Shown piece after piece: positions 35,025 to 58,216 of a stretch of 64,000 nucleotides of DNA; position 1 is the first letter of the stretch, and each line of letters opens with the position of its first letter. The stretch comes from a virus (taxonomy: Duplodnaviria; Caudoviricetes), in the IMG/VR virus record IMGVR_UViG_3300048549_001527; one strand, 5' to 3'. Both the position numbers and the translations under genes were made by a program. Under the pieces are notes generated by a model. It saw only the letters and a program-made list of their open reading frames with translations, was not told where the DNA came from and ran no database searches.

Positions 35025-36121
35025 TTAAAAATTGGGATAAGTTTCAGGCGAGACGAAGAATACCTGAAGAACATAAAATGATTGGTTGTTATGCTGCATT
35101 CAATCATATGAGAATTTCAAAAGACGCTTCAGTGCATCCGTGTTGTTTTAATAACAAAAGACATAATTGGTTGCATGACGGTAGTTTAAAGGAATATTGG
35201 TTTAATGGATTAAACGTAGAATACCAAGATGCATTTTTAAATCAAGAACTACATGAAGGATGTCAAATTTGTTTGCAGAGAATTGAAGCAGACTCTCATC
35301 CTGCCATTGTTGAATATGATTACAATATGGGAGATGATAGATTAGAATACGCAATGAATTCTGGTAATTATCCTAAAATTATTGAATTTGAAATATCAGA
35401 TTTGTGCAATTTAGAATGTGAGATGTGCCATGCAGGATTATCATCAAAATTGAGAATGGGAAGAGATAAGCATTTAGTTTCTAAACATCCATACTATCGC
35501 CAAACAAATGAGTTTGATAAAGAAGAAAATATGAATGAGTTAATTGAGCAACTAAAAGAATTTATCCCTCATCTTGAAGAAATTAGATTTGTTGGTGGAG
35601 AGCCTTTCGCCCATAAAGGTATGTTTAAATTAGCAAAAGTTATTTCAGAAATTAACCCATCTGTTGTATTAAGGGTTTGTACTAATGGCACAATATTCAA
35701 TAAGCAAGTAAAAAGCATATGTGAAAATAATAATTTAAAAGTAACTATCTCTTGTGATACCGTTATAGAAGAAGAATATAAGCAAATTAGAATTGGCGCA
35801 AACTACAAAAATACATATGATAATATTCAAAAATTTAAAGAAGCAATTGGTACTGAAAATGTAACAATTAACGCGACATTTATGTCAGTAAATGCCGAAA
35901 ATATGGATAAATTTTTTGAGTATGCTATTGAAAATGGTTTTAATACATTTATTAATGTCTATGTTAGAGAATGGAGAGAGCATACAAAGGATTGGAGAAT
36001 TGAAACCATGTCCGATGAGGTTAAACGATCTGCATTAAATAAAATGAAAGAACTTTTAAATAAAACCAACAAGTCTAATCACGTGGCTGAAATTAATAAA
36101 GTTATAGGATTGTTGAGTTGA
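35021..36121 (+). CDS. Radical SAM enzyme with N-terminal Twitch/SPASM-like domain
   Basis: CNLECEMC, GGEPF, TNG; N-terminal CYAAF..PCC..CQIC. Confidence 0.9.
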   Translation: MIKNWDKFQARRRIPEEHKMIGCYAAFNHMRISKDASVHPCCFNNKRHNWLHDGSLKEYWFNGLNVEYQDAFLNQELHEGCQICLQRIEADSHPAIVEYDYNMGDDRLEYAMNSGNYPKIIEFEISDLCNLECEMCHAGLSSKLRMGRDKHLVSKHPYYRQTNEFDKEENMNELIEQLKEFIPHLEEIRFVGGEPFAHKGMFKLAKVISEINPSVVLRVCTNGTIFNKQVKSICENNNLKVTISCDTVIEEEYKQIRIGANYKNTYDNIQKFKEAIGTENVTINATFMSVNAENMDKFFEYAIENGFNTFINVYVREWREHTKDWRIETMSDEVKRSALNKMKELLNKTNKSNHVAEINKVIGLLS

Positions 36122-37185
36122 AACCGTGCTATTGGCCTGATCATGGAGCTGTTATAGATTCGCAGGGGTTTATCAAGCCGTGTTGCATGATGGGCGGTTA
36201 TGAGATGTTAAATAATAATCACAACGTTTTAGATGGTATACATATAGACCATACTGATTCTATAAATGAATATTTTTATAGTGATTTTTTAATCTATTTA
36301 AGAAAAAGTTTACAAGAAAACAACATTGAAGGCACACCAGAATGCCATAATTGTAAGCTGCAAATAGAAAATAACGTAGGTCGGCATTTTCAGCAATCAT
36401 ACGAGTATTCAGACTATGCGATGGATGGATCTATTAAATTTTTAGAAATTACCACGAGTAATATATGCAATCAAACATGCGTTACGTGTAACAGCTATTT
36501 TAGTTCTAAGTGGGAAACAATAGAACAACTGTTTAATGATAAATTTCAAAAACGAAAACAGTTTAATTTGTCCAATGATGCAATGGATAAAATTATTAAA
36601 GTTTTACCTGAGCTAAAAGTTCTTAATATAAAAGGTGGAGAACCTTTCGCTGATATTAGAAACGCAAAAATTTTGGAAAAATTAGTAGAAGTAAATCCAG
36701 ATTGCCAGGTTTGGATATTATCAAACGCGTCTATTATTTCTAATAGATTTATAAAAGTACTAAAAAGAATTAAAAACTTAAGCTTAACTGCTAGCTTAGA
36801 TCATATTGGTAAAAAATATGAGTGGATACGAAGTACTCCTTTTGACCAGACTCTATATACACTTAAAAGAATATATGAAGAAACTGGTATCAGATTTAGT
36901 GTTTCGCCTACAATATCATATTTTAATATATTAGATATGGAAGAAATTAAAAGCTTTTACGAAGATTTTGAGTATACAAAATGGCATATTCAAAATTATA
37001 ATGATTACAATTTTGTTCGTTGGCCAGCTGAGATGGATTGTCTTAATACGAGAACTCAAGAAGAGTTAGACTCTATAGATCGCGGACTAATATCTAAGTT
37101 TAATCCTCATAAATATAACGAGTTACAAAATAAAATTAATATTATGAATGAAATAAGAGGATTTGATTGGTCAGATGAATTATAA
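36118..37185 (+). CDS. Radical SAM enzyme with N-terminal Twitch/SPASM-like domain
   Basis: CNQTCVTC, GGEPF; N-terminal CYWP..PCC..CHNC. Confidence 0.9.
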   Translation: MKPCYWPDHGAVIDSQGFIKPCCMMGGYEMLNNNHNVLDGIHIDHTDSINEYFYSDFLIYLRKSLQENNIEGTPECHNCKLQIENNVGRHFQQSYEYSDYAMDGSIKFLEITTSNICNQTCVTCNSYFSSKWETIEQLFNDKFQKRKQFNLSNDAMDKIIKVLPELKVLNIKGGEPFADIRNAKILEKLVEVNPDCQVWILSNASIISNRFIKVLKRIKNLSLTASLDHIGKKYEWIRSTPFDQTLYTLKRIYEETGIRFSVSPTISYFNILDMEEIKSFYEDFEYTKWHIQNYNDYNFVRWPAEMDCLNTRTQEELDSIDRGLISKFNPHKYNELQNKINIMNEIRGFDWSDEL

Positions 37186-38359
37186 GAGATGGCAATGGCA
37201 TAACTTAACGTTTGACGTTGAACTTACTACGCACTGTAATCTCAAGTGCCCACAGTGTTCAAGGACAGATCATAGGAATAATTTAAATAAGATGGAGTGG
37301 TTACCGCTTACGTCTGTTAGCCTAAAAGATTTCATGAAATGGTTTCCTCCGACTATTATACAATCAATTGGGTGTATTCATTTTTCAGGAACTTACGGCG
37401 ATCCTGGGATGTGTAAAGATCTAATGGATATTGTTAAGTATCTTGCGTTAGAAGGTACTTGCCGTATTTCTATAAATACAAATGGATCCATGAGAGATGA
37501 AGAGTTTTGGTTTAACCTTGCGGCTTGGGGTGGTTCAAGACTTCAACTTATATTTGATGTTGACGGTATTGACCAAGAAATGCATAGCTTTTATCGCCGA
37601 GGATCCGATCTCAATAAAGTATTAGATGCAATAGAAGTAACCTCAGGTACTGATGCAAATATCAAAGTACTTACTGTTTTATTTAAACACAATCAAGACT
37701 ATCTTGAAGATATTCGTAATATGGTTAACGAACGCGTACAAAAGCCAATTAAGTTTGATGAAGTAGAAGGAAATAACTTTCAGCATACTGGATCTAAATA
37801 TGAATTTTTAAACGAGAATGGCGAGACTGAAATTCTTGAGCAGGTTACACGACAAGATAGAGAACAAGGATTAGAACGTAGAACTCGTCGAGTACGTGAT
37901 CATCGCCATAAAGATATTGTTACCAATATTAAATCAAATGAATCTAATTTATTACCTATTGAGGATAAACCTATTATACCACAGGTAGTTGAGCCTGTCA
38001 AACAAAAAACGAAAGAATACGAAATAAATTGTTTAGCTGTTGGCGAGAATAATATCAAAGTACAAGCAAGTGGTATGGTATCGCCATGCTGTTATCTTTC
38101 AACATCGTTAGAGCGAGCTGCTATCTACCAAAAAGATCAAGACACTCAATATATGATTACGTCAACTGGCAAACATGCTGATCCCAAACATCCATTAATG
38201 CAAGAATATGTTGACAATTGGAAAGATTTTAATTTACATTATAGTAGTATCTATGATATAATGGAATCAACGTGGTTTAAAGAAAAGCTTCCTGAGCATT
38301 GGGAAACTCCTGAAACGGCTTGCCACGCTTGTGTTAAAGTATGCGGAAAATTAAAATGA
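37163..38359 (+). CDS. Radical SAM enzyme with C-terminal SPASM domain
   Basis: CNLKCPQC, GTYGDP, TNGS; C-terminal C..PCCY..CHACVKVC. Confidence 0.9.
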   Translation: MIGQMNYKRWQWHNLTFDVELTTHCNLKCPQCSRTDHRNNLNKMEWLPLTSVSLKDFMKWFPPTIIQSIGCIHFSGTYGDPGMCKDLMDIVKYLALEGTCRISINTNGSMRDEEFWFNLAAWGGSRLQLIFDVDGIDQEMHSFYRRGSDLNKVLDAIEVTSGTDANIKVLTVLFKHNQDYLEDIRNMVNERVQKPIKFDEVEGNNFQHTGSKYEFLNENGETEILEQVTRQDREQGLERRTRRVRDHRHKDIVTNIKSNESNLLPIEDKPIIPQVVEPVKQKTKEYEINCLAVGENNIKVQASGMVSPCCYLSTSLERAAIYQKDQDTQYMITSTGKHADPKHPLMQEYVDNWKDFNLHYSSIYDIMESTWFKEKLPEHWETPETACHACVKVCGKLK

Positions 38360-43236: not shown

Positions 43237-43824
43237 TTATAAATCATCCTGTCCATTAATGCATAGAATTAATCGAATATCATCTGTACCACCAATATTC
43301 CAGGCACTATGCAAACAACCTGGATTTACAAACCAAGCACTACCATCTGCTTTTAAATGTCTGACTTCTGGTATTTCATCAGTCTTACTTTTCACTGCAG
43401 TCATAGCCCAAGGATTTGTTTTGAGTGGAATATAAACTCGAATACTATAGTTTGTATCATAATCAATATGTGGAAGAATCATAGCACCTGGTTCTTTTAC
43501 GATCAGTCTGCTACGAGTGATTGGTGACTTAAACATACCAATCACTTCTTCAACATATGTTCCTTTGTATTCTGGTAAGATTTCACCATAGCATCTCTCA
43601 TCTTCATTACCATTACTAAGATACGTCAGCTCACCTTTGACTCCAGTAACTGGTGTTTGCTTATACTTGTCATTCAGATAAGGACTACCACAGACCTCAC
43701 TAATTGAATCTTGTTCATGATGGAAGTTTTCAAAACACTTTAAGAGACGATCTACATCAACTTGAACGTGTTCTATTTTTTTAAAATTTGGAAGCTCATG
43801 TCTTCTCTTAAGTGTGGTGGTCAT
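43237..43824 (-). CDS. Aspartyl/asparaginyl beta-hydroxylase-like oxygenase
   Basis: ILPHID, RVYIPL.TN, GCLHSAWNIG, IRLI. Confidence 0.8.
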   Translation of the reverse strand: MTTTLKRRHELPNFKKIEHVQVDVDRLLKCFENFHHEQDSISEVCGSPYLNDKYKQTPVTGVKGELTYLSNGNEDERCYGEILPEYKGTYVEEVIGMFKSPITRSRLIVKEPGAMILPHIDYDTNYSIRVYIPLKTNPWAMTAVKSKTDEIPEVRHLKADGSAWFVNPGCLHSAWNIGGTDDIRLILCINGQDDL

Positions 43825-44356
43825 AATGATTTCCTTCAAAAGGTGCAAAAATATTTATCCACCATTTATTAGTTGGTCCATTTTCGTCATGTCCAAAAAA
43901 GTTTATTAGACCGAAACTAACAAATGATATGGGTAAAAGTGCTGCTAAGTAAAGCAGAACGATTGGATTTATCAAATACGCTATTAAATAAGTTACCAAT
44001 AAAATAATCCACATAAACTTGTGTAAAAACATTGCTCTAGGATTTTTGTATAAAGATTTTATAAATTTTCTAGGAATAGACTTTACTCTAAACGTTGAAA
44101 ACAAAACTGTTATCGCTCCTTTATGTTTTGGGCTGTGAGGGTCTAATTCAGTATCAGAATAAGCATGATGCATTCTATGCATAGCAGCCCAAGTCAACGG
44201 AGATCTTGCGCAACATAGCAATCCAATGTACAAAACAAAAAATTCTAAAATAGGATTTAATTTTAGTTCATTGTGCGATAAACATCTATGATAACCGATA
44301 GTTAATCCTATAGCAGCCATTATCCAATAAAATACGTACAACATTATCAAACTCAT
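43808..44356 (-). CDS. Compact membrane fatty-acid desaturase (delta-9-like)
   Basis: His boxes GYHRCLSH, HRMHHAYSD..DPHSP, NHYDHH; start reassigned to 44356. Confidence 0.85.
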   Translation of the reverse strand: MSLIMLYVFYWIMAAIGLTIGYHRCLSHNELKLNPILEFFVLYIGLLCCARSPLTWAAMHRMHHAYSDTELDPHSPKHKGAITVLFSTFRVKSIPRKFIKSLYKNPRAMFLHKFMWIILLVTYLIAYLINPIVLLYLAALLPISFVSFGLINFFGHDENGPTNKWWINIFAPFEGNHYDHHT

Positions 44357-45066
44357 TTTAACACCTCGTAAGCATTGACCTGAAGAGCAAAAAAGAAAGT
44401 ATATACTCTTTCCGCAGTCGAGTAAGCGTGATGCCATTTTGCTGTATCAGCCAGATATAATCTGCCTTTTTCAACGTTTTCTTCTTCTATATATTCTTGT
44501 TTTTCTTCATCCCAAAAACAAAAATGATTATTTTCTGGATCGTTAGTTCCCCATATTCTCAAATTTGCAGGAGGAATAGTTACATCAATGTGTGGTTTGA
44601 AATGTGCCCCCGTGTTCCATTTTAATATAGTACAACGTGCTAACATTCCGTCAAATATTTGCATAGGATCTAAAGATTTCATATTTTTCATTATTTCATT
44701 TGGATATTTGAAATCTGTATCAAACAATGGGTTGTCTGGATGTTCTAAACACCACACATCCATTGGCCAATTAACTGGACTTGGTTTCATATCAATTGGA
44801 TTTTCAAGGTCTGTAAGTCCAAGAGAATACCTTTCTAAGTCAGTATGAGTAGGTCCAAATTGCTCGAATAAATGGTCGTATCTTTTTATCTCTTCTTCAA
44901 ATAAATCACAATCAATTTTTATATCCAAAGGAACAAGATTTTTAGTGTGAATTTCTCTATACTTTTCTTCAGGTAATCTATCTCGAGATAAAGAAAGATT
45001 TCTAAAATGTTCCCATTCCGGCCAGTTTGATAGTTTATCATAATTAGATCCAGGTTCATAATTCAT
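44353..45066 (-). CDS. HxD..H Fe(II) hydroxylase
   Basis: FKPHID, DTAKWHHAYS, YTFF. Confidence 0.7.
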   Translation of the reverse strand: MNYEPGSNYDKLSNWPEWEHFRNLSLSRDRLPEEKYREIHTKNLVPLDIKIDCDLFEEEIKRYDHLFEQFGPTHTDLERYSLGLTDLENPIDMKPSPVNWPMDVWCLEHPDNPLFDTDFKYPNEIMKNMKSLDPMQIFDGMLARCTILKWNTGAHFKPHIDVTIPPANLRIWGTNDPENNHFCFWDEEKQEYIEEENVEKGRLYLADTAKWHHAYSTAERVYTFFFALQVNAYEVLK

Positions 45067-45599
45067 AGTAAAACTCCAACCAAATGAATTCTTTCTGATC
45101 TACTACCATTAAAGGCTGCATGCATTTTTTCTGTATTAGTAATCCACCACTCATTATAAGGAATATGAAATACCTCATTTTCTATTACCATCTTGCAGGA
45201 TTGATCTGTTTTTATTGGGTAATGCAATCTTTTACTAACATCTTTATGCCAACTAGTACAAGCAAAAGGAACACTGCGCATTAGTCTTAATCTTCCTATT
45301 GTGTATCGATCATTTAGAAGATTAAAAACTTCTTCGAAAATTGTTCCTCTAAAAACATCACACAGAACAATAAAATCTTCATCGTATAGCGGATGTTCAA
45401 ATTTTGGTAAACGAACTATGTTTCCTGCTTTATCTTTAACTACTTTATCCCAATTGTAATATAAGCTTTTACATCCTATAGTCCAGTCATGAGATTTTCC
45501 TCCCGGAGCATTCAAGCAAATTTGGTTAAGATTCCAATTTACCAAACCTTTTGATATGAGCTGTCTTAACTCGTCTTCTAAATTTTCAAAAATTGGCAA
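45063..45599 (-). CDS. Aspartyl/asparaginyl beta-hydroxylase-like oxygenase
   Basis: TSWHKD, RLHYPIKT, NTEKMHAAFNG, RIHLV. Confidence 0.8.
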   Translation of the reverse strand: MPIFENLEDELRQLISKGLVNWNLNQICLNAPGGKSHDWTIGCKSLYYNWDKVVKDKAGNIVRLPKFEHPLYDEDFIVLCDVFRGTIFEEVFNLLNDRYTIGRLRLMRSVPFACTSWHKDVSKRLHYPIKTDQSCKMVIENEVFHIPYNEWWITNTEKMHAAFNGSRSERIHLVGVLL

Positions 45600-45622
45600 G
45601 TCGTTTAATTTAGAAAAGTGTT

Positions 45623-46225
45623 CTATTTTGAAACTCCTTCCAATTGTTTATATGCCCAGATTTTTTCTCTGCATTGCCAACATTCTTTGCATTCATTAAT
45701 AGTATTTGTAAGGCAACTCATTGTATTTGATAAATCTATATTTAACTTATTTGCTAGATCTATAATGTGATATTTATATAAATGAAGAAAAGGCGCGATT
45801 AGTTTATCGTTATTTTGTATTCTCCAAGGTCTGTAAGGAGCACCGTCTTTTAAATCTGGAAAATAATGACTCGGTGGAGTATGATTTATTCCAATGTATA
45901 ATTGATCATATTTACTTTGAATGGAAGCAATGGCTTCTTTTATCCTCAAATCTGGATTTAAAGTAGTTTCTTTAAATCTATGAACTTTTTGATTTGTTAA
46001 GGACTCTACTCGAGATGGATTGTCGAATCCATCTTTTCTATCTATAGTGTACACATCTGGATTATACGACTTAATTAAATTATATAAAACTAAACTATCT
46101 ATACCGCCTGACATCATAAGAGCAATTTTTCCAGCAGGAGATATAGTAACTAATCTTCTATCCCAAGTTGGACCGACTTTATGCATGGTTTTTATATTTG
46201 GAATAGTTTCACCAACTTTAATCAT
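45623..46225 (-). CDS. QueC-like PP-loop ATPase
   Basis: MSGGIDS PP-loop; C-terminal SC..ECKECWQC zinc site. Confidence 0.75.
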   Translation of the reverse strand: MIKVGETIPNIKTMHKVGPTWDRRLVTISPAGKIALMMSGGIDSLVLYNLIKSYNPDVYTIDRKDGFDNPSRVESLTNQKVHRFKETTLNPDLRIKEAIASIQSKYDQLYIGINHTPPSHYFPDLKDGAPYRPWRIQNNDKLIAPFLHLYKYHIIDLANKLNIDLSNTMSCLTNTINECKECWQCREKIWAYKQLEGVSK

Positions 46226-46278
46226 ATTACGAAACACCTTTTACTTTTGCGACCATACTAAAAAATAATGTATACGTA

Positions 46279-48300: not shown

Positions 48301-48833
48301 TGTGTAAATCTGCTATTAAAAATCTCGCATCTTTACTTCGCACTGAAGTCTTCGACAAAATTGATTCCTATTGGACTGAGGCTGAAACTTATAGTATTAT
48401 TGAACTCAGAGATTTAGGTAGCGGATATTACGACGAAGATCGTTATCAAGTTAATCATATTGTTGCTCCTAAAAGGAGCGGTAGATCTATTGATGCAAAT
48501 AGTGCCAAAGGCGTATACATTTGGTATCACGGAGATCAGATTATGTATGTTGGTAAAACAGACGCGCCTTCAACGAGTATTCACAAACGGCAATATGCCC
48601 ACTCGCGTAGCTTTACAACACCACACGAAAGACACGAATCTTCAGGACGTAAATATCGCGAGTTTTTAAAAGAAAATAATTTACATTCTATGGATATTGT
48701 GATAAAATATATTAATACTGATAAGTTTGATATTGAAGGTATGGCAGAACTCATTGAAACTGCAACTATTAATAATTATCAGCCATTACTTAATCGTGAA
48801 ATTAAAGGGAGAGGCCAGAGAGAATGCTATTAA
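48300..48833 (+). CDS. GIY-YIG-like nuclease
   Basis: KGVYIW..IMYVGKT, later H/R, E..I...QPLLN. Confidence 0.7.
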   Translation: MCKSAIKNLASLLRTEVFDKIDSYWTEAETYSIIELRDLGSGYYDEDRYQVNHIVAPKRSGRSIDANSAKGVYIWYHGDQIMYVGKTDAPSTSIHKRQYAHSRSFTTPHERHESSGRKYREFLKENNLHSMDIVIKYINTDKFDIEGMAELIETATINNYQPLLNREIKGRGQRECY

Positions 48834-49378
48834 TCATTGAAGGTATGGATCGCTGTGGTAAATCCACATTGGTACAAAACCTACGTAAAAAATATTTTAA
48901 AAATCCAAACATAATGGCTCACCATTCATCTTCTCCTCCTGACTTTGAAGATCCTAATGGTTGGGAAAAAGAACATTATGAGTCTTTGTTCATTGCATCT
49001 AAACGACTTGTAAATCAAATGAATTATGATATTATCTTTGACCGTTTCCATCTCGGTGCAATCGTCTATGGCGAAAAGTATCGTGCTGCAGACGGTAAAG
49101 ACATTTATGAATTAGATCGAAGGTTTCTTAGCGGATATAAAAATGCCGCTCTAATTTTGTTGACTGATACTACTGACGGTATTATGTCTCGTGATGATGG
49201 CGATAGCCTTGAACAAAGTAAAGAAGATTTCTTATATAGTCGTAACGCGTTTTTGACTGCGTTCAACGAGTCAAGCTGTAAACATAAACTAAGCATAAAT
49301 ATAACAAAGAACGGTGGAGTGGGTAACACATATGATACCGTTGTAAATTTTTTAGATGGAGTTCGTAATGAGAATTGA
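48824..49378 (+). CDS. Thymidylate-kinase-like dNMP kinase
   Basis: IIEGMDRCGKST P-loop, FDRFHLG. Confidence 0.85.
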   Translation: MLLIIEGMDRCGKSTLVQNLRKKYFKNPNIMAHHSSSPPDFEDPNGWEKEHYESLFIASKRLVNQMNYDIIFDRFHLGAIVYGEKYRAADGKDIYELDRRFLSGYKNAALILLTDTTDGIMSRDDGDSLEQSKEDFLYSRNAFLTAFNESSCKHKLSINITKNGGVGNTYDTVVNFLDGVRNEN

Positions 49379-50066
49379 TAGTGTACATGACATTCGTGAG
49401 TTCTTTAAAGGCGAGCTAGCCGACGAAGCATTTACAATTGATAAGACAGGCCAACGGACTATTGAATTAATTGGCGCAAACTTTCTTGCAACAGAACCTG
49501 CAATCTTTGGTGAACCAAGTCAAGCTTATATTAACTCTGAGCTTGCTTGGTATGAGTCGCAATCAACAAACATTAATGATATCTATGGACCATCCAAACC
49601 TGCTCCTGCCGCATGGCAATATTCAGCAGATCCACACGGTAATATTAATTCCAATTATGGTCATTTAGTATTCTCTAAAAAATATCATAACCAATTCCAA
49701 AATGCTTTTGATGAACTATGGAGTAACCCTGATAGCCGTCGTGCTCAAATGATTTACAATCGTCCATCTATTTGGGTTGAGTTTGACGAAGGTGGTAAGT
49801 CTGACTTTATTTGTACTAATGCACAAACGTTTTATATCCGCGATGGCATTCTGATGATGGTGTCACAAATGCGTTCTAACGACGCAATCTTTGGCTATAA
49901 AAACGACTATGCTTGGGCTCAATATCTTATGGATAAGTTTGTTGCTCAATGGAACCAACAATGTAAACTTCCTGGCAATAAGCACTTTACTATTGATAAA
50001 GGTATGCTTACATGGCAAGCTATGAATTTGCACGTGTATGAGCGCCACTTTGACTTGGTTGTATAA
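49368..50066 (+). CDS. gp42: dCMP hydroxymethylase (thymidylate synthase fold)
   Basis: Colinear with T4 gp42: DKTG..TIE.IGA.F, EL.WY, INSNYG, NPDSRR, DF.CTN, MRSND, NDYAW (Asp implies dCMP specificity), LHVY.RHF. Confidence 0.9.
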   Translation: MRIDSVHDIREFFKGELADEAFTIDKTGQRTIELIGANFLATEPAIFGEPSQAYINSELAWYESQSTNINDIYGPSKPAPAAWQYSADPHGNINSNYGHLVFSKKYHNQFQNAFDELWSNPDSRRAQMIYNRPSIWVEFDEGGKSDFICTNAQTFYIRDGILMMVSQMRSNDAIFGYKNDYAWAQYLMDKFVAQWNQQCKLPGNKHFTIDKGMLTWQAMNLHVYERHFDLVV

Positions 50067-50594: not shown

Positions 50595-51104
50595 ATGGAA
50601 GAACGTGAGCCTTACGAGGCATACATGCGTAGGCGCAATTTAGAAGAAGACACCCGTGAATTAAAATGGGATAACCGCTTTATGGAATTGGCTAAAACAA
50701 TTTCAGGATGGAGCAAAGATCCTTCGAGTAAAATTGGTGCAGTGGCAGTAAACGATGAACGCCGCATACTTGCGACTGGATATAACGGTTTCCCAAAAGG
50801 CATTGAAGATAGTCAAGAAAGACTAAACGATAGAGAACAAAAATATCCGCTTATTGTTCACGCTGAAACAAACGCGTTGATGAATGCGCTTTATGCTGGT
50901 GTTTCTTTAAAAAATGCAACAATGTACGTTCATGGATTACCCGTGTGTCCTGACTGTACTAAGCTTATTATTCAAGCAGGCATTCGTAGAATTGTTATTA
51001 ACAAATTCGTAATGAATACTCCAGAAAAATGGGTTGAGCTATGGAATAGCAAATCAGGACCTATGTTTAAAGAGGCAGGCGTATTGGTAACACAGCTTGG
51101 CTAA
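50595..51104 (+). CDS. cd: dCMP deaminase
   Basis: SKDPSSKIGA, TGYNGFP, HAETNA, PVCPDC. Confidence 0.93.
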   Translation: MEEREPYEAYMRRRNLEEDTRELKWDNRFMELAKTISGWSKDPSSKIGAVAVNDERRILATGYNGFPKGIEDSQERLNDREQKYPLIVHAETNALMNALYAGVSLKNATMYVHGLPVCPDCTKLIIQAGIRRIVINKFVMNTPEKWVELWNSKSGPMFKEAGVLVTQLG

Positions 51105-51759
51105 TAATTTAACTGATATATATGTTGGCGTTAAGAAAAACGATCCTAATCGTAAAAAGAATGACTTTTATCCAACTCCGCCTCTTGCCACATATGTATT
51201 GTGCAAGTATGGTAATCCTCCACAAAATTTAATTGAACCTTGTGCCGGTCGAGGTAACATAACAAGAGAATTAGTTCGTAACGGTCATAATGTTATATCG
51301 TATGACTTAAATGATTATAGTGATAAATTAGTACCTATTAAAACTACAGTTGATGCTATGGAATTACAAAAGCTTGATGGCTTTGATGGTGTAGTTACCA
51401 ATCCCCCATATCATAAAGACTTGCCGCGGAAGATGGCGGAAAAATGGATAAAAGAATATGATTACGTCGCAATGTTTTTAAGACTAACTTTCTTTGAAGG
51501 AAAAAAACGAAATAAACTATTTACAAACTACCCGCCTAGTGATATAATATTTTTATCAGATCGAGTTAGATTTGATTCTAATATTGTAGAACCAATTGAA
51601 AAGAAAGATCAGATCGGCGGCATGATTGCATATGCTTGGTTCATTTGGAACAAAAAGTATCCGCAAGGATTAACTAAAATGCGTTGGGCAATGCTTGAAG
51701 ATGAATATGACGAGTGGAGATTAAATTATGATAAATGTAGTAATACCGGCAGCAGGTGA
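51097..51759 (+). CDS. Amino (N6-adenine / N4-cytosine) DNA methyltransferase
   Basis: DFYPTP, EPCAGRG (motif I), TNPPY (motif IV). Confidence 0.85.
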   Translation: MANNLTDIYVGVKKNDPNRKKNDFYPTPPLATYVLCKYGNPPQNLIEPCAGRGNITRELVRNGHNVISYDLNDYSDKLVPIKTTVDAMELQKLDGFDGVVTNPPYHKDLPRKMAEKWIKEYDYVAMFLRLTFFEGKKRNKLFTNYPPSDIIFLSDRVRFDSNIVEPIEKKDQIGGMIAYAWFIWNKKYPQGLTKMRWAMLEDEYDEWRLNYDKCSNTGSR

Positions 51760-53203
51760 GGCAACAAGATTAAAGCCATTAACTGCAAATTGCTCGAAGG
51801 CAATGATACGCGTACACGGTAAACCTACTATTGAATATATTATTGAGTCAGTTCATAATAACGGCGCTGTAGTTAATCAAATCATTATAGTTGATGGCAA
51901 GCATGACGATATTCGTGAGTGGGTTGCAAAATCAAAATATAATAATATTAAATGTGTAAAACAAGGATCTCTTAACGGTCCTCGTGATGCTATTGATGTT
52001 GGTATTAACAGTTTAGAAAATCCTACGTATCCTTTAGTTGTATGGCTAGGGGATGCAATTATTCTTGAAGAAGAACTACCTTTAGGCACTGACTTTTTAT
52101 TAACCAAAGAAGTTGAAGATCACTTTGCTTGGTGTATGTGGGATGGTAAAAAATACTTTAATAAACCAAAAGAAAATATTGAACAAGCTTCAGCTCTAGT
52201 AGGTCTATACAGTTTCAGTAGAGGATACGAAGCATATCACGCTTTTCACTACTCAAAAGGTTATGACATATCAGATGCTTTGGAGTTATATGAAGAACAC
52301 GCTTCATTTAATAATATCAACACGGAAAAATGGTATGACATCGGCGACATATCTTCATATCACAAAACTTGCGCAACTCTACTAACATTCAAAGCTCGTG
52401 AATTTAATTCGTTTGAATACAATTCAGATCTTAATATGATTACTAAATGGCCGCAGTCTGATAATAAATTTGCCGTTAAGACTATTATGAATGAAAAGAA
52501 TTGGTATGAAAATCTGAGCCCACTGCAAAATATGTTTGTTCCTAAAATTTTGCCAGATCCATATGCACTAACAATGTCATATGAGTCTGGTATTTTGCTA
52601 TCTGATTTGTTTATGCATGAGGATCTAAGCCCGTCTACTATTGAATACTTAATTGAAAAGGTATTCATTATAATGAACAAGTACTTCCATAAAAAAGCAA
52701 CACTTGAATTTGTCGCAGACTTTTGGGATAACGCTGAAAAAATGTGGATTGATAAAACCAAAAATCGTGGCGCTGATGATTATTATCTTGATGTTGCAGA
52801 GCGCTGTCTTAGTAGAGCTCGCCCAGTTTCAGGTATGCACGGTGATTTGCATTTCGGTAATATTCTTTATAATCCATATAACGATAGCATTACCTTGTTA
52901 GATCCGCGTGGCTCTTATGGAGATCATGTTGGTTGCGGCGGAGATTGGATGTATGATATGTGCAAATTGTCACACGACCTTTTCCATGGATATAATGAAT
53001 TAGTTTCCGGGCATAAATACCCTCAGACAGTACGTGAAACCTTTGGCCGATTGGTACTTAAATATTACCCTGACGCATATGATGATATTATTGACGGCGG
53101 CGCTTTGTTAATTGCAACTTGTTTGCCATTACATTACGACTGTGAAGAACGCCAACAAAGAATGAGAGATTATATTAATGAATACGCAAACCTTAGTAGT
53201 TGA
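51728..53203 (+). CDS. Sugar nucleotidyltransferase fused to APH/choline-kinase-like domain
   Basis: VIPAAGEATRLKPLT..SKAM, WLGD; HGDLHFGNIL and LLDPRG kinase motifs. Confidence 0.85.
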   Translation: MINVVIPAAGEATRLKPLTANCSKAMIRVHGKPTIEYIIESVHNNGAVVNQIIIVDGKHDDIREWVAKSKYNNIKCVKQGSLNGPRDAIDVGINSLENPTYPLVVWLGDAIILEEELPLGTDFLLTKEVEDHFAWCMWDGKKYFNKPKENIEQASALVGLYSFSRGYEAYHAFHYSKGYDISDALELYEEHASFNNINTEKWYDIGDISSYHKTCATLLTFKAREFNSFEYNSDLNMITKWPQSDNKFAVKTIMNEKNWYENLSPLQNMFVPKILPDPYALTMSYESGILLSDLFMHEDLSPSTIEYLIEKVFIIMNKYFHKKATLEFVADFWDNAEKMWIDKTKNRGADDYYLDVAERCLSRARPVSGMHGDLHFGNILYNPYNDSITLLDPRGSYGDHVGCGGDWMYDMCKLSHDLFHGYNELVSGHKYPQTVRETFGRLVLKYYPDAYDDIIDGGALLIATCLPLHYDCEERQQRMRDYINEYANLSS

Positions 53204-53537
53204 TATTGATGACACGATTTGTACTCCGTTGCATGGCAGATCTGAATCTGAAGTTAAGTACGGAATGGCAAATCCTAATCGCCCAATGATTGCAAGTTTA
53301 CAAAAAGCAAAGAAAAACGGATATCGCATTGTACTTCATACCGCGCGACGAATGCTTACTCACGATGGTGACATAAATAAAATCATTAATGACGTCGGAA
53401 AAATAACCACAGACTGGTTGGATAAGTACGAAGTACCTTATGATGAAATTGTGTGGGGTAAACCACACGGTGTTTATTACATTGATGATAAAGCAATGAC
53501 TCCTGAAGAGTTCGTTAAGATGATGGAATGGAAGTGA
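53178..53537 (+). CDS. HAD-family phosphatase (capsule-biosynthesis type)
   Basis: DIDDTI, HTAR, GKP, YIDDKA. Confidence 0.88.
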   Translation: MNTQTLVVDIDDTICTPLHGRSESEVKYGMANPNRPMIASLQKAKKNGYRIVLHTARRMLTHDGDINKIINDVGKITTDWLDKYEVPYDEIVWGKPHGVYYIDDKAMTPEEFVKMMEWK

Positions 53538-53539
53538 TT

Positions 53540-54784
53540 ATGAAAAACATTGGTTTCGCAAAGATTGGTAAATCTATTAAATTTAAAACTAACAAGTACT
53601 CTCCCATTGGTGGAGATAATGAAGCGTCTTGCACTATACGAGCAATGGCAAACAACAACCCAGACAAAACGTTTTACCTAATTGGTCGTTCTGACTTTGG
53701 TGCATTGTCTGATACTGAACGTTTAGATTTGTTCCCATATGATAATGTAATTGACTGTTGGCACGGCGTTCCTTTGGCAATGTCAGAAACATATTATAAT
53801 CATATTATTAATTATTTTAAAGACATTGAGCTTGACTTTTCTGTTATGATGATTGGGCAAATTAGTAATGTTACAATCCCAGATAAAATTTGGAAAGTAC
53901 GTGAAAGTCAACAAGACGGCAAACCTGCTGCAACTCTTGATATGACTAAGTGGTACACAACTCCTATTACCAAATGGCTAAACGAAAGTAAGCCACGATG
54001 GATAGAAATTGTTAACGATCCACGATATGTTATCAAACAACCACGTGATGTATTTCATATGCCTTTCCGTTCTCTTGGACAATACGATTATGATTATGAA
54101 ACATTTTCTATTACTGATTACGAAAACCAAGAAAGATTAGTACGGGTTGTTCATTCTGAATATGCAGGAATGGAAACTGCTTTTTGCGGCGATTATGAAT
54201 ACACTGAACAAGTAAACACGGATCGTAACACAGACTTTATGGTTGTACTTAATGAAGGCAAACCGTCACGCTATAACTTACTTAAAAGCTGGGTACTTGA
54301 TAAATTTGATAACGTTGATATATACGGTAAGTGGCTCGACGAACGTGCTGAAAGCGACGAAAGGTTTAAAGGATCATTACATATCAATGAGATCCAAGAT
54401 AAACTACAGGATGTTAAGTTTACATTTATCATTCCAATTAAAGAAGGTTGGACCACATCAAAATATATTGAAATGATTCACGCTGGTGTTATTCCTTTCC
54501 TTCATCCAACTTATGACGACCAAGGTCATTTGCCTATTCCTAACTTTCTTAGACCTAAAACGCCTGAAGAATTTTATACAAATATGCAAAGACTAATTGA
54601 CAACCCAACAGAATACGAAACGGTTCTCAATGGATTGCGTAAAGCAATTCTTAAACCAGAATATTATGATGGTAGCTTTATTAATGACAATATTATGAAA
54701 GCTGCTGACGAAAATTATAAAAGACCTGACATGTTGCAGTTTACAAAGAAAAAAGCTGCGACACTTGAAGACTTTTTTGCATAG
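53540..54784 (+). CDS. GT-B glycosyltransferase resembling T4 beta-glucosyltransferase
   Basis: Colinear resemblance to Bgt (N-terminal K.IKFKT..E, NDPR, R..L..W..VDIYG, T.KYIE); C-terminal KKAATLEDFFA. Confidence 0.7.
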   Translation: MKNIGFAKIGKSIKFKTNKYSPIGGDNEASCTIRAMANNNPDKTFYLIGRSDFGALSDTERLDLFPYDNVIDCWHGVPLAMSETYYNHIINYFKDIELDFSVMMIGQISNVTIPDKIWKVRESQQDGKPAATLDMTKWYTTPITKWLNESKPRWIEIVNDPRYVIKQPRDVFHMPFRSLGQYDYDYETFSITDYENQERLVRVVHSEYAGMETAFCGDYEYTEQVNTDRNTDFMVVLNEGKPSRYNLLKSWVLDKFDNVDIYGKWLDERAESDERFKGSLHINEIQDKLQDVKFTFIIPIKEGWTTSKYIEMIHAGVIPFLHPTYDDQGHLPIPNFLRPKTPEEFYTNMQRLIDNPTEYETVLNGLRKAILKPEYYDGSFINDNIMKAADENYKRPDMLQFTKKKAATLEDFFA

Positions 54785-54794
54785 AGGATATAAA

Positions 54795-56006
54795 ATGAGC
54801 GAAATTACATGGGCCCCAATTATTCCACTAATCGGTGGACAAATGCTAGGAGCAGAAAAAGCTTTTGGAAAACCACCTGAAGCTATCTATTCATACGCGG
54901 ACTTTGAAGGAAACGATAGTCATTATGTTAACTATCAGCAAAACGTCAAAGGGCGTGACGTACAATATAAAATGATACCTGAAAGTTCAAGTCGACATAT
55001 AAGTGTTATTTCAGGCACACCACCTTGTGCGGCATTATCACAACTTAACACTGGTAAAACCGAAGCGGCAAAAGGTGCAAAATGCGAAAAGAACGAATGG
55101 ATGTACGAAGTCTTTAAAGAAGGCATTAACCGATTTTCAGCTAAAGCTATTGTTGTTGAAAACGCTCCTGCACTGTTTACTAAAAAAGGTAAAGAAGTAG
55201 CTGATAATTTGTTTGACATTTGCTCAAAAGCAGGGTATAGTTTAACTCTATATAAAACATCTACAAAATATCATGGTATCCCACAAGCTAGAGATCGTTG
55301 TTTTGCCATTGGTTGGAATTCAGAAACCGCTCCTATTATGAATTGGTACAAACGGCCTCGTAAAAAGTTTCACGAATATCTTTCGGATTTAACAGACGAT
55401 ATTCAACAAATGGATATTTTGTGTAACAAAAAACTTGATGAAGAACCTTACTATCAATACATCAAGTCACTTACAAACGAAGATCCTCGTAAGGTAATTA
55501 TGGAAAGCGGACAGATTACGGCATTTAACTATATTAATAAAAGTGGTAAATTGCCTGCTTGTAATAAATGGATGCATGATACAAATAACGAACGCGGTAT
55601 CAAAGTATCAGACCATGCTGTTAAAAAGTTTGCAATGGGTAAAGGTATTTGGGATAGCTCAACACACGTCTTTGGAGATTGTATGAATGCAGTTATCGGT
55701 CGTAACCTTGCAGATACAATTCATCCAAAGTTTGATCGTTCTTTAACTATTCGTGAAGCGTTGTATCTTATGGGTTTCCCTCATGACTTTGAGCTTGTTG
55801 GCGGATTACCTAAAATGAATCATATTGCTCAAAACGTTCCTGTTCCAACATCAAGAGATATTCATACTGAAATCGGTAAGTTTATTCGTGGCGAGTTAAC
55901 GATGTCAGATACTAATTACCATCGTCAAGATAACCATAACGAACGGATGTGGTCTGATCCGGGTGGGAAAAACAACCAAGCAACACTTGAGGAGTTCATG
56001 GCTTGA
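54795..56006 (+). CDS. C5 cytosine methyltransferase-fold protein with atypical motif I
   Basis: GTPPC (IV), VENAP (VI), GIPQARDR (VIII), RSLTIREA..LMGFP (IX), QNVP (X); motif I reads IPLIGG. Confidence 0.8.
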   Translation: MSEITWAPIIPLIGGQMLGAEKAFGKPPEAIYSYADFEGNDSHYVNYQQNVKGRDVQYKMIPESSSRHISVISGTPPCAALSQLNTGKTEAAKGAKCEKNEWMYEVFKEGINRFSAKAIVVENAPALFTKKGKEVADNLFDICSKAGYSLTLYKTSTKYHGIPQARDRCFAIGWNSETAPIMNWYKRPRKKFHEYLSDLTDDIQQMDILCNKKLDEEPYYQYIKSLTNEDPRKVIMESGQITAFNYINKSGKLPACNKWMHDTNNERGIKVSDHAVKKFAMGKGIWDSSTHVFGDCMNAVIGRNLADTIHPKFDRSLTIREALYLMGFPHDFELVGGLPKMNHIAQNVPVPTSRDIHTEIGKFIRGELTMSDTNYHRQDNHNERMWSDPGGKNNQATLEEFMA

Positions 56007-56638
56007 AACACGACTTTATTATAGATTTTGAGACATTCGGCAAGGATGCTCAAAAGTGCGCAGTGATTGACTGTTCGGTGATGGTATTCAGTTGGGATAA
56101 AATGATTTCAGCTGATCCATATACTCTTGCAGATATATCAAAAACAAAACGATTTAAACTATCCGTGGTAGATCAAGTTAAAAATTATGGATGGGAAATT
56201 GATAAAGGAACAGTTACATGGTGGGAATCCTTAGGACCTGAAGTTCGTAGGAACATTAAACCACTTCCAACTGATTTAACTGTTGCTGATTTTACCAAGC
56301 AATTTCATGACTTTTTAATTGACTCGCCAAAGATTAGTAAATGGTGGTCTAGGTCAAATACATTTGACCCGATTATTCTTGGTCGTTTATTTCAATCACA
56401 AGATAAACTATTACATATGGAAGAGTACTTAAAGTATTGGGCAGTCCGCGATACACGTACTTATATTGATGCAAAGTTTGATTTTAAGCAAAAGAATGGG
56501 TTTATTCCATTTGCTGACGAACAGCGTTGGGAACAGATGTTTAAAGCTCACGACAGCTCGTGGGATATTTTAGCAGATGTATTACGCATGCAAGCAATTC
56601 GTAGGGCTGAGGAAGATTTAGAACAGGTGACAACATGA
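56003..56638 (+). CDS. dexA: Exonuclease A (DEDD)
   Basis: DFIIDFET.G, AVID, TVTWW, FDP.IL, RDTRT, AHDS.WD as in T4 DexA. Confidence 0.85.
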   Translation: MKHDFIIDFETFGKDAQKCAVIDCSVMVFSWDKMISADPYTLADISKTKRFKLSVVDQVKNYGWEIDKGTVTWWESLGPEVRRNIKPLPTDLTVADFTKQFHDFLIDSPKISKWWSRSNTFDPIILGRLFQSQDKLLHMEEYLKYWAVRDTRTYIDAKFDFKQKNGFIPFADEQRWEQMFKAHDSSWDILADVLRMQAIRRAEEDLEQVTT

Positions 56639-57528
56639 ATTTAAACGTAACTATTGAAGACTTACAACAATATAAAATCTTTGTTGGTACACCAATGTAT
56701 GGTGGACAATGCGCAGGCTTATTCACAAAGGCTTGTAACGATCTTGCTATGTTGTGTACGGCTAATAAAATTCCAATTAAGTTTTATTATCTTTTTAATG
56801 AAAGTTTGGTACAAAGAGCTCGTAACTATATTGTTGATGAATTCCTACGCTCAGACTCAACGCATTTAATGTTTATTGATTCCGACATTGGTTTCAATCC
56901 AAGAGATGTTATTTCACTTATGGCAATATATCATTCAGATCCTGATAAGTATGACATTTTGACCGGACCTTATCCTAAAAAGACTATTGCGTGGGAAAAA
57001 GTTCATATGGCCGCAAAGGCAGGTAAAGGCGATGAAAATCCTTTTGAGCTTAACGAATTTACTGGAGACTTTGTATTTAATCCAGTAGGTGGAGTTACTA
57101 GTTTTAAAATGGATGCACCACTTGAAGTTGGTGAAGCAGGTACAGGATTTATGTTAATACCTCGTAAAGTATTTGAAGATTACCGAGCTGCATACCCTGA
57201 ATTGTCATATAAGCCAGACCACGCAAGAACTGAAAACTTTGACGGAGAACGTGATATTACAGCATTCTTTGATTGTATAATTGATCCAAAAACACGGCGG
57301 TATTTGTCTGAGGATTACTTCTTTTGTCAAAAGGCAAGAGCAATACAAAAAAGAGTTTGGATGTGTCCATGGATGAGAATGACTCATGTTGGTTCTTATA
57401 TGTTTAACGGTAATATGTCTGCTCTTGGATCTTTAGGAGCGTCTCCAACCGCAAATAAACAAAGCAATTCTAAGAACTATAAAAAACCATTGACAAAAAC
57501 CAAAAAACGTAATAAAATAAACAAATGA
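56635..57528 (+). CDS. GT-A-like hypothetical protein
   Basis: VGTPMYGG, ESLVQRARN, HLMFIDSDIGF, YLSEDYFFC. Confidence 0.7.
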   Translation: MNLNVTIEDLQQYKIFVGTPMYGGQCAGLFTKACNDLAMLCTANKIPIKFYYLFNESLVQRARNYIVDEFLRSDSTHLMFIDSDIGFNPRDVISLMAIYHSDPDKYDILTGPYPKKTIAWEKVHMAAKAGKGDENPFELNEFTGDFVFNPVGGVTSFKMDAPLEVGEAGTGFMLIPRKVFEDYRAAYPELSYKPDHARTENFDGERDITAFFDCIIDPKTRRYLSEDYFFCQKARAIQKRVWMCPWMRMTHVGSYMFNGNMSALGSLGASPTANKQSNSKNYKKPLTKTKKRNKINK

Positions 57529-57550: not shown

Positions 57551-58216
57551 ATGAAATTTTCTGAACGCACTCTTACTATTCTTAAGAGTTTCTCTACTAT
57601 CAACAAATCAATCCAAATGAAGCAAGGGAATACCCTTCGTACCATTACACCTGAAAAAACACTGATTGCATCCGCAACAATCCCAGATCAGTTTCCATCA
57701 GAAGCATGTATTTACGATTTGTCAAGATTTTTATCAATTTTGTCACTTCATACTGCGCCAGACGTAGAGTTTCATGATAAATACTTTGTAATCACAGAAG
57801 GTAAACAGCGTACTCGTTACGCCTTTGCCGACGTTTCCATGATACACGCAGCGCCTGAAAAAACCATTGAATTGCCGTCGGCTGATGTGGTTGTTGATGT
57901 ATCTTGGAATGATTTGCAATCTGTTCAAAAAGCGGCAGGTGTTCTTCAGTTTAATGAAGTTGCATTTGTTGGCCAGGATGGAAAGTGTTACTTAAAGGCC
58001 ATTGATAGTTCGTCTGCGGCAGCGGATGACTACGGTGTAGAAATTGGCGATACTGCCGATGAGTTTAAAATTATTATTAAAACTGATAATTTGAAGCTCT
58101 TACCTCAAGATTACAGAGTTACGCTGTCAAGTAAAGGTATCTCTGAATTTAAAGGTGAAGACGTCACGTATTTCGTGGCTATTGATACAAAGTCGACTTA
58201 TAAGAAAGGATCCTAA
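57551..58216 (+). CDS. gp45: Sliding clamp
   Basis: MKFS..TL.ILKSFSTIN.SI, IYDL..FL, NLKLLP.DY.V, Y.VA. Confidence 0.95.
   Translation: MKFSERTLTILKSFSTINKSIQMKQGNTLRTITPEKTLIASATIPDQFPSEACIYDLSRFLSILSLHTAPDVEFHDKYFVITEGKQRTRYAFADVSMIHAAPEKTIELPSADVVVDVSWNDLQSVQKAAGVLQFNEVAFVGQDGKCYLKAIDSSSAAADDYGVEIGDTADEFKIIIKTDNLKLLPQDYRVTLSSKGISEFKGEDVTYFVAIDTKSTYKKGS

What the first reader, a model, noticed from the sequence alone, without database searches (positions are those of the whole stretch)
54795..56006. C5-MTase-fold protein with altered SAM-binding motif beside an hmC synthase
Seen: catalytic PC, ENxP and PQxRxR motifs are intact, but motif I (normally FxGxGG) reads IPLIGG. Logic: pre-replicative hmC from gp42 would leave little unmodified C to methylate. 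Established: C5-MTases without SAM can add or remove hydroxymethyl groups and couple thiols to hmC in vitro. Inference: this may be a repurposed hmC editing or derivatizing enzyme, or it methylates residual C in a partially substituted genome.
Basis: partly seen in the sequence, partly recalled or inferred. Interest (0 to 1): 0.6.

Follow-up and report, generated by a model that had tools for sequence, protein, structure and literature searches.

The report
Clamp-tethered cytosine-methylase look-alike of hmC phages
A marine T4-like phage that makes hydroxymethylcytosine DNA also carries a cytosine-C5 methylase look-alike with intact chemistry residues, a family-wide rebuilt methyl-donor pocket and a tail like the one its relatives' DNA polymerases use to hold the sliding clamp; its virus-only family travels with cytosine-replacing enzymes, and what it does to DNA is untested.

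Summary
ORF 54795-56006 (403 aa) has the C5-MTase fold (Pfam 86.9 bits; AF2 pLDDT 95; Z 24-26 to DNMT1, M.HaeIII and M.HhaI). It keeps PPC (C78), ENAP (E122), PQxRxR and QNVP (N347). Motif I reads IPLIGG.

This is a family signature, not decay. P11, L12, G14 and G15 are at least 90% conserved in 135 representatives down to 30% identity, and the motif II glutamate is absent family-wide.

The family was found only in viruses: 17 hits in 185,579 prokaryote species, all mis-binned phage contigs, none checked beside a restriction gene. It is bound to dCMP-specific thymidylate-synthase homologues of at least five sequence types. The decorating enzymes next to it vary (BGT-like, AGT, TAGT, hydroxymethyl-DNA-kinase-like).

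The protein and the neighbouring BGT-like glycosyltransferase both end in ATLE(D/E)F(F/M)A. That is the C-terminal motif of the DNA polymerase in related phages and in T4, so both probably ride the gp45 clamp.

The cofactor and product are unresolved. My estimates:
- 0.4: SAM-dependent methylation of cytosines that escaped replacement.
- 0.3: SAM-free chemistry on hmC.
- 0.15: another one-carbon donor.

I found no published description. The scan has noted the same family on other DNA (e1-5835036, e1-5811264, e1-5725338).

The parts
54795..56006 (+). C5-cytosine-MTase-fold gene (403 aa), PLIGG subfamily
54784..54788 (+). GAGGA ribosome-binding site, 6 nt before the ATG. It overlaps the last base of the upstream gene's stop codon.
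54822..54839 (+). Motif I variant IPLIGG (I10-G15). I10 takes the place of HhaI F18 and L12 the place of G20.
54897..54902 (+). A35-D36 at the position of the motif II Glu-Trp. The position is unconserved in the family.
55023..55028 (+). Motif IV P77-C78, the catalytic cysteine (invariant)
55158..55169 (+). Motif VI ENAP (E122 invariant)
55281..55298 (+). Motif VIII PQARDR (R166 and R168 invariant)
55830..55841 (+). Motif X QNVP. N347 is kept; CmoX has Arg here.
55980..56003 (+). C-terminal tail ATLEEFMA, clamp-binding-like
53528..54784 (+). GT-B glycosyltransferase resembling T4 beta-glucosyltransferase. It ends in ATLEDFFA.
51728..53203 (+). Fusion of a sugar-1-phosphate nucleotidyltransferase with a kinase-like domain
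53178..53537 (+). HAD sugar phosphatase
51097..51759 (+). N6-adenine MTase-like protein (NPPY) with an ordinary SAM motif, EPCAGRG
50595..51104 (+). dCMP deaminase
49356..50066 (+). T4 gp42-type dCMP hydroxymethylase
48824..49378 (+). Thymidylate-kinase-like nucleotide kinase
56635..57528 (+). phrog_1574 protein, probably a GT-A glycosyltransferase (DSD motif). It is syntenic with the MTase-like gene.
57551..58216 (+). gp45 sliding clamp, the proposed docking partner. I named this ORF from its position and its conservation across related loci; no family search was run on it.

Best explanation
Proposal: the gene encodes a virus-only, sliding-clamp-tethered DNA cytosine-C5 enzyme that belongs to the phage's cytosine-replacement pathway.

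Proposed mechanism:
1. Its C-terminal ATLEEFMA peptide docks on gp45, as the polymerase tail does. The enzyme therefore scans freshly replicated DNA together with the BGT-like glycosyltransferase, which carries the same tail.
2. It flips out a cytosine, holds N3/N4/O2 with E122, R166 and R168, and attacks C6 with Cys78.
3. The C5 carbanion takes a one-carbon group from a cofactor held in a rebuilt pocket (PLIGG, no motif II Glu).
4. The branch I commit to: the cofactor is still SAM and the substrate is cytosine incorporated unmodified. The enzyme would mop up residual C into 5mC, so that no bare cytosine is left for host or phage C-specific nucleases.

Shown: the fold, the catalytic residues, the family-wide motif changes, the virus-only distribution, the linkage to dCMP-modifying enzymes, and the tail shared with the polymerase.

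Inferred: clamp binding, the substrate, the cofactor and the product.
For: Fold and catalytic set:
- Z 24-26, with model residues 2-367 on HhaI 10-325.
- C78, E122, R166 and R168 are invariant.
- N347 (HhaI N304, next to the SAM methyl according to PMC12783734) is kept in 130 of 135 representatives.
- G14-G15 are kept, and D55-V56 has the same spacing to strand 4 as HhaI D60-I61.

Linkage to cytosine replacement:
- A TS homologue lies within 10 kb in 20/23, 27/27 and 22/43 loci of at least 15 kb.
- Where none is nearby, three records have one elsewhere.
- Every aligned TS homologue has Asp at the ThyA-N177 position.
- The decorating enzymes vary while this gene stays. This points to a substrate common to all these phages.

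Clamp tail:
- Related polymerases end ...SLESFFM and ...TLESFFG; T4 gp43 ends ...SLDFLFG.
- Only this gene and the GT carry the tail among 284 window ORFs.
- 42 of 131 diverse representatives have such a tail, against 1.2% of internal positions.

Other points:
- One family cluster is fused to a CXXC finger, a domain that binds unmethylated CpG in other proteins.
- No gp56 dCTPase was found in four complete relatives or in this window.
Against: - The Phe and first Gly of motif I and the Glu of motif II are, to my knowledge, kept in all characterised SAM-dependent C5-MTases, including CmoX. Here they are replaced family-wide.
- The cultured relative XG4 has gp42 and a T4-type dCTPase next to its copy, so it should have almost no bare cytosine.
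- Many relatives carry a MazG/PRA-PH-type pyrophosphatase near gp42 that could do the same job.
- 5mC in place of hmC could not be glycosylated.
- No natural C5-MTase with specificity low enough to mop up every sequence context is known to me.
Confidence: 0.4

Rival explanations
1. SAM-independent enzyme that works on hmC in DNA. Cys78 adds to C6 of hmC and the hydroxyl leaves, which gives a TS-like exocyclic methylene. A nucleophile held in the former methionine site then adds to the methylene, producing a 5-(X-methyl)cytosine. Alternatively the group is removed or exchanged.
For: - The adenosine-contacting residues are lost family-wide while every residue for C6 attack is invariant.
- The new pocket residues P11, L12, P28, N40 and D41 are themselves at least 77% conserved. 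This means a ligand site is being kept, not decaying.
- The family is linked to dCMP-modifying TS homologues in every sufficiently complete record examined.
- XG4 has a dCTPase beside its copy.
- Some relatives carry a hydroxymethyl-DNA-kinase-like gene with the same clamp tail.
- In vitro precedent, from my own knowledge and not read here: Liutkeviciute, Klimasauskas and colleagues, 2009-2014.
Against: - No conserved co-substrate gene accompanies the family.
- The motif X Asn and a possible motif III Asp are kept.
- S-TIM5 pairs its copy with a ThyA-like Asp variant that lacks the acidic residue of hydroxymethylases. RB69-type homologues make 5-hydroxycytosine (PMC13326640). The partner base may therefore not always be hmC.
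Confidence: 0.3
2. The enzyme acts on unmodified cytosine in DNA but uses a different electrophile. Examples are DNA-level hydroxymethylation with methylene-tetrahydrofolate or formaldehyde, which would feed the glycosyltransferases, or an unusual SAM analogue.
For: - The same pocket changes as above.
- It would explain at once the linkage to hmC pathways, the clamp tether shared with the GT, and why the gene stays constant under varying decorations.
- CmoX shows that phage C5-MTases can change cofactor.
Against: - No folate-binding feature was identified.
- N347 is Asn as in methyl-transferring enzymes, not the Arg of CmoX.
- No CmoA-like gene appears in the cluster.
- No natural precedent is known.
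Confidence: 0.15
3. An ordinary site-specific orphan C5-MTase that protects against host restriction. Its odd motif I would be harmless lineage drift, and its position by gp42 would be inherited synteny only.
For: - Pfam membership.
- Phages often carry orphan MTases.
- Much of the co-occurrence comes from T4-like genomes with conserved gene order.
Against: - The TRD is conserved across the whole family (K278 and the GKGxWD motif) instead of varying with specificity.
- The family was not found in isolate genomes of cellular organisms or, in the contexts checked, beside restriction genes.
- The linkage also holds with non-gp42 TS lineages and in non-syntenic genomes.
- The changed motif residues are themselves at least 90% conserved.
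Confidence: 0.1

Closest known systems
Bacterial and phage DNA (cytosine-5)-methyltransferases (M.HhaI, M.HaeIII, E. coli Dcm; PF00145)
   Same: Two-domain fold (Z 24-26). Motifs IV, VI, VIII, IX and X are present, with the catalytic Cys, Glu and two Arg.
   Different: Motif I is IPLIGG. The motif II Glu is missing. The TRD is large, helical and conserved across the family. A clamp-binding-like tail is present. The family was found only in viruses and was not seen next to a restriction enzyme. It scores below the NCBIfam dcm cut-off.
CmoX, the phage DNA cytosine C5-carboxymethyltransferase (PDB 8yf3; PMC12783734)
   Same: A phage C5-MTase-fold enzyme whose cofactor use departs from SAM, and which starts a hypermodification pathway.
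   Different: CmoX keeps the adenosine contacts (F25, E47, F48, D69) and changes N304 to Arg. This family does the opposite. No CmoA gene lies nearby.
TET-associated phage C5-MTs (Burke et al. 2021, PMC8256090)
   Same: Phage C5-MTs embedded in hmC and glycosylation gene clusters.
   Different: Those enzymes make 5mC that TET oxidises. In this family hmC comes from gp42 before replication, and no TET was detected. The inactive clades in that paper have defects in motifs VIII-X, not in I-II.
Eukaryotic DNMT1
   Same: A C5-MTase recruited to the replication clamp (PCNA) by a short peptide. One family cluster also carries a CXXC finger.
   Different: The similarity is an analogy of logic only. 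The tail here is the T4-type C-terminal motif, and there is no evidence of hemimethylation reading.
T4 gp43, gp55 and gp33 C-terminal gp45-binding peptides
   Same: C-terminal (S/T)L(D/E)xF(L/F) peptide. Related polymerases end SLESFF and TLESFF.
   Different: Here the peptide sits on DNA-modifying enzymes. Binding has not been tested.

Membership tests
DNA (cytosine-5)-methyltransferase, PF00145 | Overall fold and profile match | tested here: met
   86.9 bits against a cut-off of 22; AF2 pLDDT 95; Z 24-26, rmsd about 3 A, 275-329 residues aligned
DNA (cytosine-5)-methyltransferase, PF00145 | Motif IV Pro-Cys nucleophile, motif VI ENV Glu, motif VIII QxRxR | tested here: met
   C78, E122, R166 and R168 are invariant in 132 sequences
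DNA (cytosine-5)-methyltransferase, PF00145 | Motif I FxGxGG (SAM loop) | tested here: not met
   The sequence is IPLIGG. hhalign and the structural offset both put I10 on the Phe and L12 on the first Gly. L12 occurs in 126 of 135 representatives.
DNA (cytosine-5)-methyltransferase, PF00145 | Motif II Glu that binds the SAM ribose | tested here: not met
   The equivalent is position 35 (hhalign) or 39 (HMMER against HaeIII). Both are unconserved.
DNA (cytosine-5)-methyltransferase, PF00145 | Motif III Asp that binds adenine N6 | tested here: inconclusive
   D55-V56 fits by spacing, and position 55 is Asp or Asn in 67 of 135. hhalign places the motif on P57-Y58 with low confidence. Position 62 is Asp in 82 of 135 but Pro in this protein.
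DNA (cytosine-5)-methyltransferase, PF00145 | Motif X Asn | tested here: met
   N347 is kept in 130 of 135
DNA (cytosine-5)-methyltransferase, PF00145 | SAM-dependent formation of 5mC | not testable with these tools
   Needs an assay or a co-fold with the ligand
NCBIfam dcm, TIGR00675 | Score above the curated cut-off | tested here: not met
   59.2 bits against 100.65, and the match starts at residue 35
CmoX carboxymethyltransferase | Arg at the HhaI N304 position, plus a CmoA partner gene | tested here: not met
   Asn is at that position. No CmoA turned up among the cluster genes scanned. The rest of the genome was not available.
TET-coupled phage C5-MT | Neighbouring TET/JBP dioxygenase | tested here: inconclusive
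   PF12851 was not found in four complete relatives or in XG4, but the control genomes did not ring either
T4-type gp45 clamp-binding proteins | C-terminal (S/T)L(D/E)xF(L/F) peptide like that of the cognate polymerase | tested here: met
   Physical binding is not testable here.

The most novel reading that the evidence does not exclude
This would be the first natural C5-MTase-fold enzyme that has given up SAM. It would either derivatise hmC in DNA through a covalent exocyclic-methylene intermediate, or hydroxymethylate DNA cytosine with another one-carbon donor. In either case it would work as a clamp-tethered station of a replisome-coupled DNA-modification line.
Probability: 0.4. Interest if true: 0.9.

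Novelty: new variant of a known kind. Interest (0 to 1): 0.62.

Why it matters
If the enzyme still uses SAM, it shows two things. The supposedly universal motif I and II contacts of C5-MTases are dispensable, and hmC phages back up pre-replicative base replacement with a clamp-coupled post-replicative step.

If it does not use SAM, it is a new natural DNA chemistry, and possibly a new base. That would be directly useful for hmC labelling and sequencing tools.

Either way, putting polymerase-type clamp tails on DNA-modifying enzymes gives a testable answer to how phages modify every site of a fast-replicating genome. The family is abundant in ocean and freshwater viromes (260 clusters at 50% identity with E below 1e-30) and has cultured carriers for testing: Pseudoalteromonas phage vB_Psh_XG4 and the S-TIM5-type cyanophages.

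Tried and rejected
- No whole genome is held for the window. The rest of this phage, including any dCTPase, could not be searched.
- Alignment A1 was too diverse for a locus scan. A scan with P0146 alone gave only two loci.
- T4 gp56 was not found in the window or in four complete relatives. That does not prove absence, because MazG/PRA-PH-type enzymes lie near gp42 in many relatives.
- The TET search found nothing, but its control did not ring.
- Pfam scans of the long fused members gave only a CXXC finger.
- Rejected as a CmoX orthologue: Asn instead of Arg, and it is no closer to 8yf3 than to HhaI.
- A Dnmt2-like tRNA methylase is unlikely. The structural match is lower (Z about 20) and the protein has a DNA-clamp tail, but this was not excluded.
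- Literature searches found no description of the family, of the tail on modifying enzymes, or of XG4 DNA.
- No atomic coordinates are returned by the tools, so the SAM pocket could not be measured.

Full report
**Observation**

The ORF at 54795-56006 runs from an ATG to a stop and encodes 403 aa. GAGGA lies six bases upstream of the ATG, and homologues start at the same Met.
- IPLIGG (residues 10-15)
- PPC (76-78)
- ENAP (122-125)
- PQARDR (163-168)
- QNVP (346-349)

Pfam PF00145 matches at 86.9 bits. NCBIfam dcm reaches only 59 bits against a cut-off of 100.65, and that match begins after motif I. An AlphaFold2 model built on 132 sequences has a mean pLDDT of 95. It superposes on DNMT1, M.HaeIII and M.HhaI at Z 24-26, with model residues 2-367 on HhaI residues 10-325.

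**A family signature, not decay**

A search of 1.84 billion cluster representatives found 260 clusters at E below 1e-30. In 132-135 representatives, down to 30% identity:
- C78, E122, R166 and R168 are invariant.
- P11, L12, G14, G15, N40, the ENAP motif, H160, the QNVP motif and others are at least 90% conserved.

Profile-profile alignment to canonical enzymes, and the constant offset of 8 in the structural superposition, both put I10 on the motif I Phe and L12 on its first Gly.

The motif II Glu falls on position 35 (hhalign) or position 39 (HMMER against HaeIII). Neither position is conserved.

Motif III is ambiguous. D55-V56 has the right spacing in this protein, and position 55 is Asp or Asn in about half of the family.

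The motif X Asn is kept. In CmoX, the phage carboxymethyltransferase, the pattern is the reverse: the adenosine contacts are kept and the Asn is changed to Arg (PMC12783734).

So the pocket is rebuilt on its adenosine side and is held under selection. The tools return no coordinates, so I could not measure whether SAM still fits.

**Context in the window**

The gene is the seventh of a tightly packed, co-oriented block:
- a thymidylate-kinase-like kinase
- a T4 gp42-type dCMP hydroxymethylase
- dCMP deaminase
- an N6-adenine MTase-like protein
- a nucleotidyltransferase-kinase fusion
- a HAD phosphatase
- a 418-aa protein
- this gene
- an exonuclease
- a phrog_1574 protein with a DSD motif
- ORFs I take to be gp45 and gp44, named from position and conservation in related loci; no family search was run on them

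The gp42 orthologue is 44% identical to PDB 1b49 and keeps the catalytic Cys and the dCMP-selecting Asp.

I folded the 418-aa protein (pLDDT 92). Its best structural matches are T4 beta-glucosyltransferase entries.

The sugar-activation genes resemble the RB69/DLP3 arabinose set (PMC13326640). That paper also shows that some TS homologues make 5-hydroxycytosine. Calling the enzyme here an hmC synthase therefore rests on its closeness to T4 gp42, against only 23-28% identity to the other group.

TS homologue within 10 kb of a family member, in viral loci of at least 15 kb:

| Set of loci | Loci with a TS homologue |
|---|---|
| 62-99% relatives | 20 of 23 |
| Clade at about 30% identity | 27 of 27 |
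| Third, mixed set | 22 of 43 |

- For genomes of the third set without a nearby copy, three of four searchable records have one elsewhere. The fourth is a fragment estimated at 26% complete.
- Every aligned TS homologue has Asp at the ThyA-N177 position. All except S-TIM5's also have Asp three residues before the catalytic Cys. They fall into at least five sequence types.
- S-TIM5, whose copy is 30% identical, pairs it with a ThyA-like Asp variant 2.4 kb away.
- The cultured Pseudoalteromonas phage XG4 (50% identical) has gp42, the phosphatase, the nucleotidyltransferase-kinase, the GT, this gene and then a T4 gp56 dCTPase homologue.
- In one genome for each of 185,579 prokaryote species there are only 17 hits. 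All are MAG contigs; 12 of them carry a TS homologue, and several carry gp45 and gp44 homologues as well.
- For scale, gp42-like genes occur in 1,158 of 50,697 phage records. This family occurs in six of those records: XG4 and five S-TIM5-type entries.

Much of the signal comes from synteny within T4-like phages. However, the different TS lineages and the non-syntenic genomes make the link more than inherited gene order.

**What varies and what stays**

Between the deaminase and this gene the cassette differs from phage to phage:
- In this window: sugar-activation genes plus a BGT-like GT.
- In L099: a T4 alpha-glucosyltransferase (E 8e-71).
- In L133: a TET-associated glycosyltransferase.
- In L088: inositol-1-phosphate synthase, a protein with the 5-hmdU DNA kinase helical domain, and a BGT-like protein.
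- In a non-T4-like group: kinase, nucleotidyltransferase, GT and epimerase.

The MTase-like gene is the constant. Its job is therefore probably tied to the base itself and not to one particular decoration.

**Clamp tail**

I tested that lead:
- Of 284 stop-to-stop ORFs in the window, only these two end in the pattern. The endings are ATLEDFFA and ATLEEFMA.
- DNA polymerases of two related complete phages end ...SLESFFM and ...TLESFFG. T4 gp43 ends ...SLDFLFG. That tail is the known gp45-binding peptide; this is established knowledge that I recall, not something read here.
- Neighbouring modification enzymes in other loci end STLEAFL, ATLEGFWA, RTLEEFFT and ASLEAFL.
- 42 of 131 diverse family members end in this motif or in an xLF tail, against 1.2% of internal positions.
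- XG4 and S-TIM5 lack the tail, so it is common but not universal.

**Reading**

The catalytic residues say the enzyme attacks C6 of a cytosine-type base in DNA. The tail says it does so behind the fork.

The cofactor and substrate are open. I rank the readings as follows:

| Reading | Estimate | Main reasons for | Main reasons against |
|---|---|---|---|
| SAM-dependent mop-up of residual cytosine | 0.4 | Parsimony; the retained Asn, GG and possible Asp; a CXXC fusion; no gp56 found in four complete relatives | Loss of the motif I and II residues; the dCTPase in XG4 |
| SAM-free chemistry on hmC | 0.3 | The pocket changes; the strict linkage to dCMP-modifying enzymes; the dCTPase in XG4 | No conserved co-substrate gene; the partner base may not always be hmC |
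| Another one-carbon donor acting on C | 0.15 | | |
| An ordinary orphan MTase | 0.1 | | The conserved TRD; no member found in cellular genomes; linkage across TS lineages |

**Novelty**

Eight literature searches found no description of this family or of clamp tails on phage DNA-modifying enzymes. The 2023 glycosyltransferase preprint only lists methyltransferases and clamp genes among GT neighbours. The scan itself has noted the family on other DNA, and one follow-up (e1-5835036) reached a similar conclusion.

Noticed in passing
window 32662-38359 (+): Five radical-SAM genes in tandem, two of them with SPASM domains. Unannotated ORFs follow as far as 42872. No link to the cytosine cluster was established.
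   Followed up: no
window 43237-46237 (-): Two Asp/Arg-hydroxylase-like 2OG oxygenase genes, a fatty-acid-desaturase-like gene and a QueC-like gene stand together on the minus strand.
   Followed up: no
window 56635-57528 (+): A phrog_1574 protein with a DSD motif and a weak Anp1 hit, probably a GT-A glycosyltransferase. It stays syntenic with the MTase-like gene and gp45, even in the clade at 30% identity.
   Followed up: partly
L088 6207-10004: A relative's cassette holds myo-inositol-1-phosphate synthase, a protein with the 5-hmdU DNA kinase helical domain, and a BGT-like protein. The last two carry clamp-type tails. This suggests a phosphorylated or inositol-bearing cytosine modification.
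   Followed up: no
L001 4781-5617 (cyanophage S-TIM5, F417_gp076): The gene annotated as thymidylate synthase has Asp at the ThyA-N177 position (VPLDM) and Cys three residues before the catalytic Cys. It may therefore act on dCMP and not dUMP.
   Followed up: partly
protein P0183 (metagenomic, 598 aa): This family member is fused to a C-terminal CXXC zinc finger (PF02008, E 6.6e-07). Other members of 650-1,480 aa carry unannotated extensions.
   Followed up: partly
L099 4118-4540; L088 4723-5073: A PRA-PH/MazG-type pyrophosphatase and a conserved 116-aa protein lie just upstream of gp42 in many relatives. They are candidates for removing dCTP in place of gp56. Neither was found in this window.
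   Followed up: partly
L177, L180 and L210, 11245-14700: In a non-T4-like phage group, several adjacent proteins, including the MTase-like one, end in KVNSVI, KVSSVF or TTSLF. This looks like a different clamp-tail dialect.
   Followed up: no
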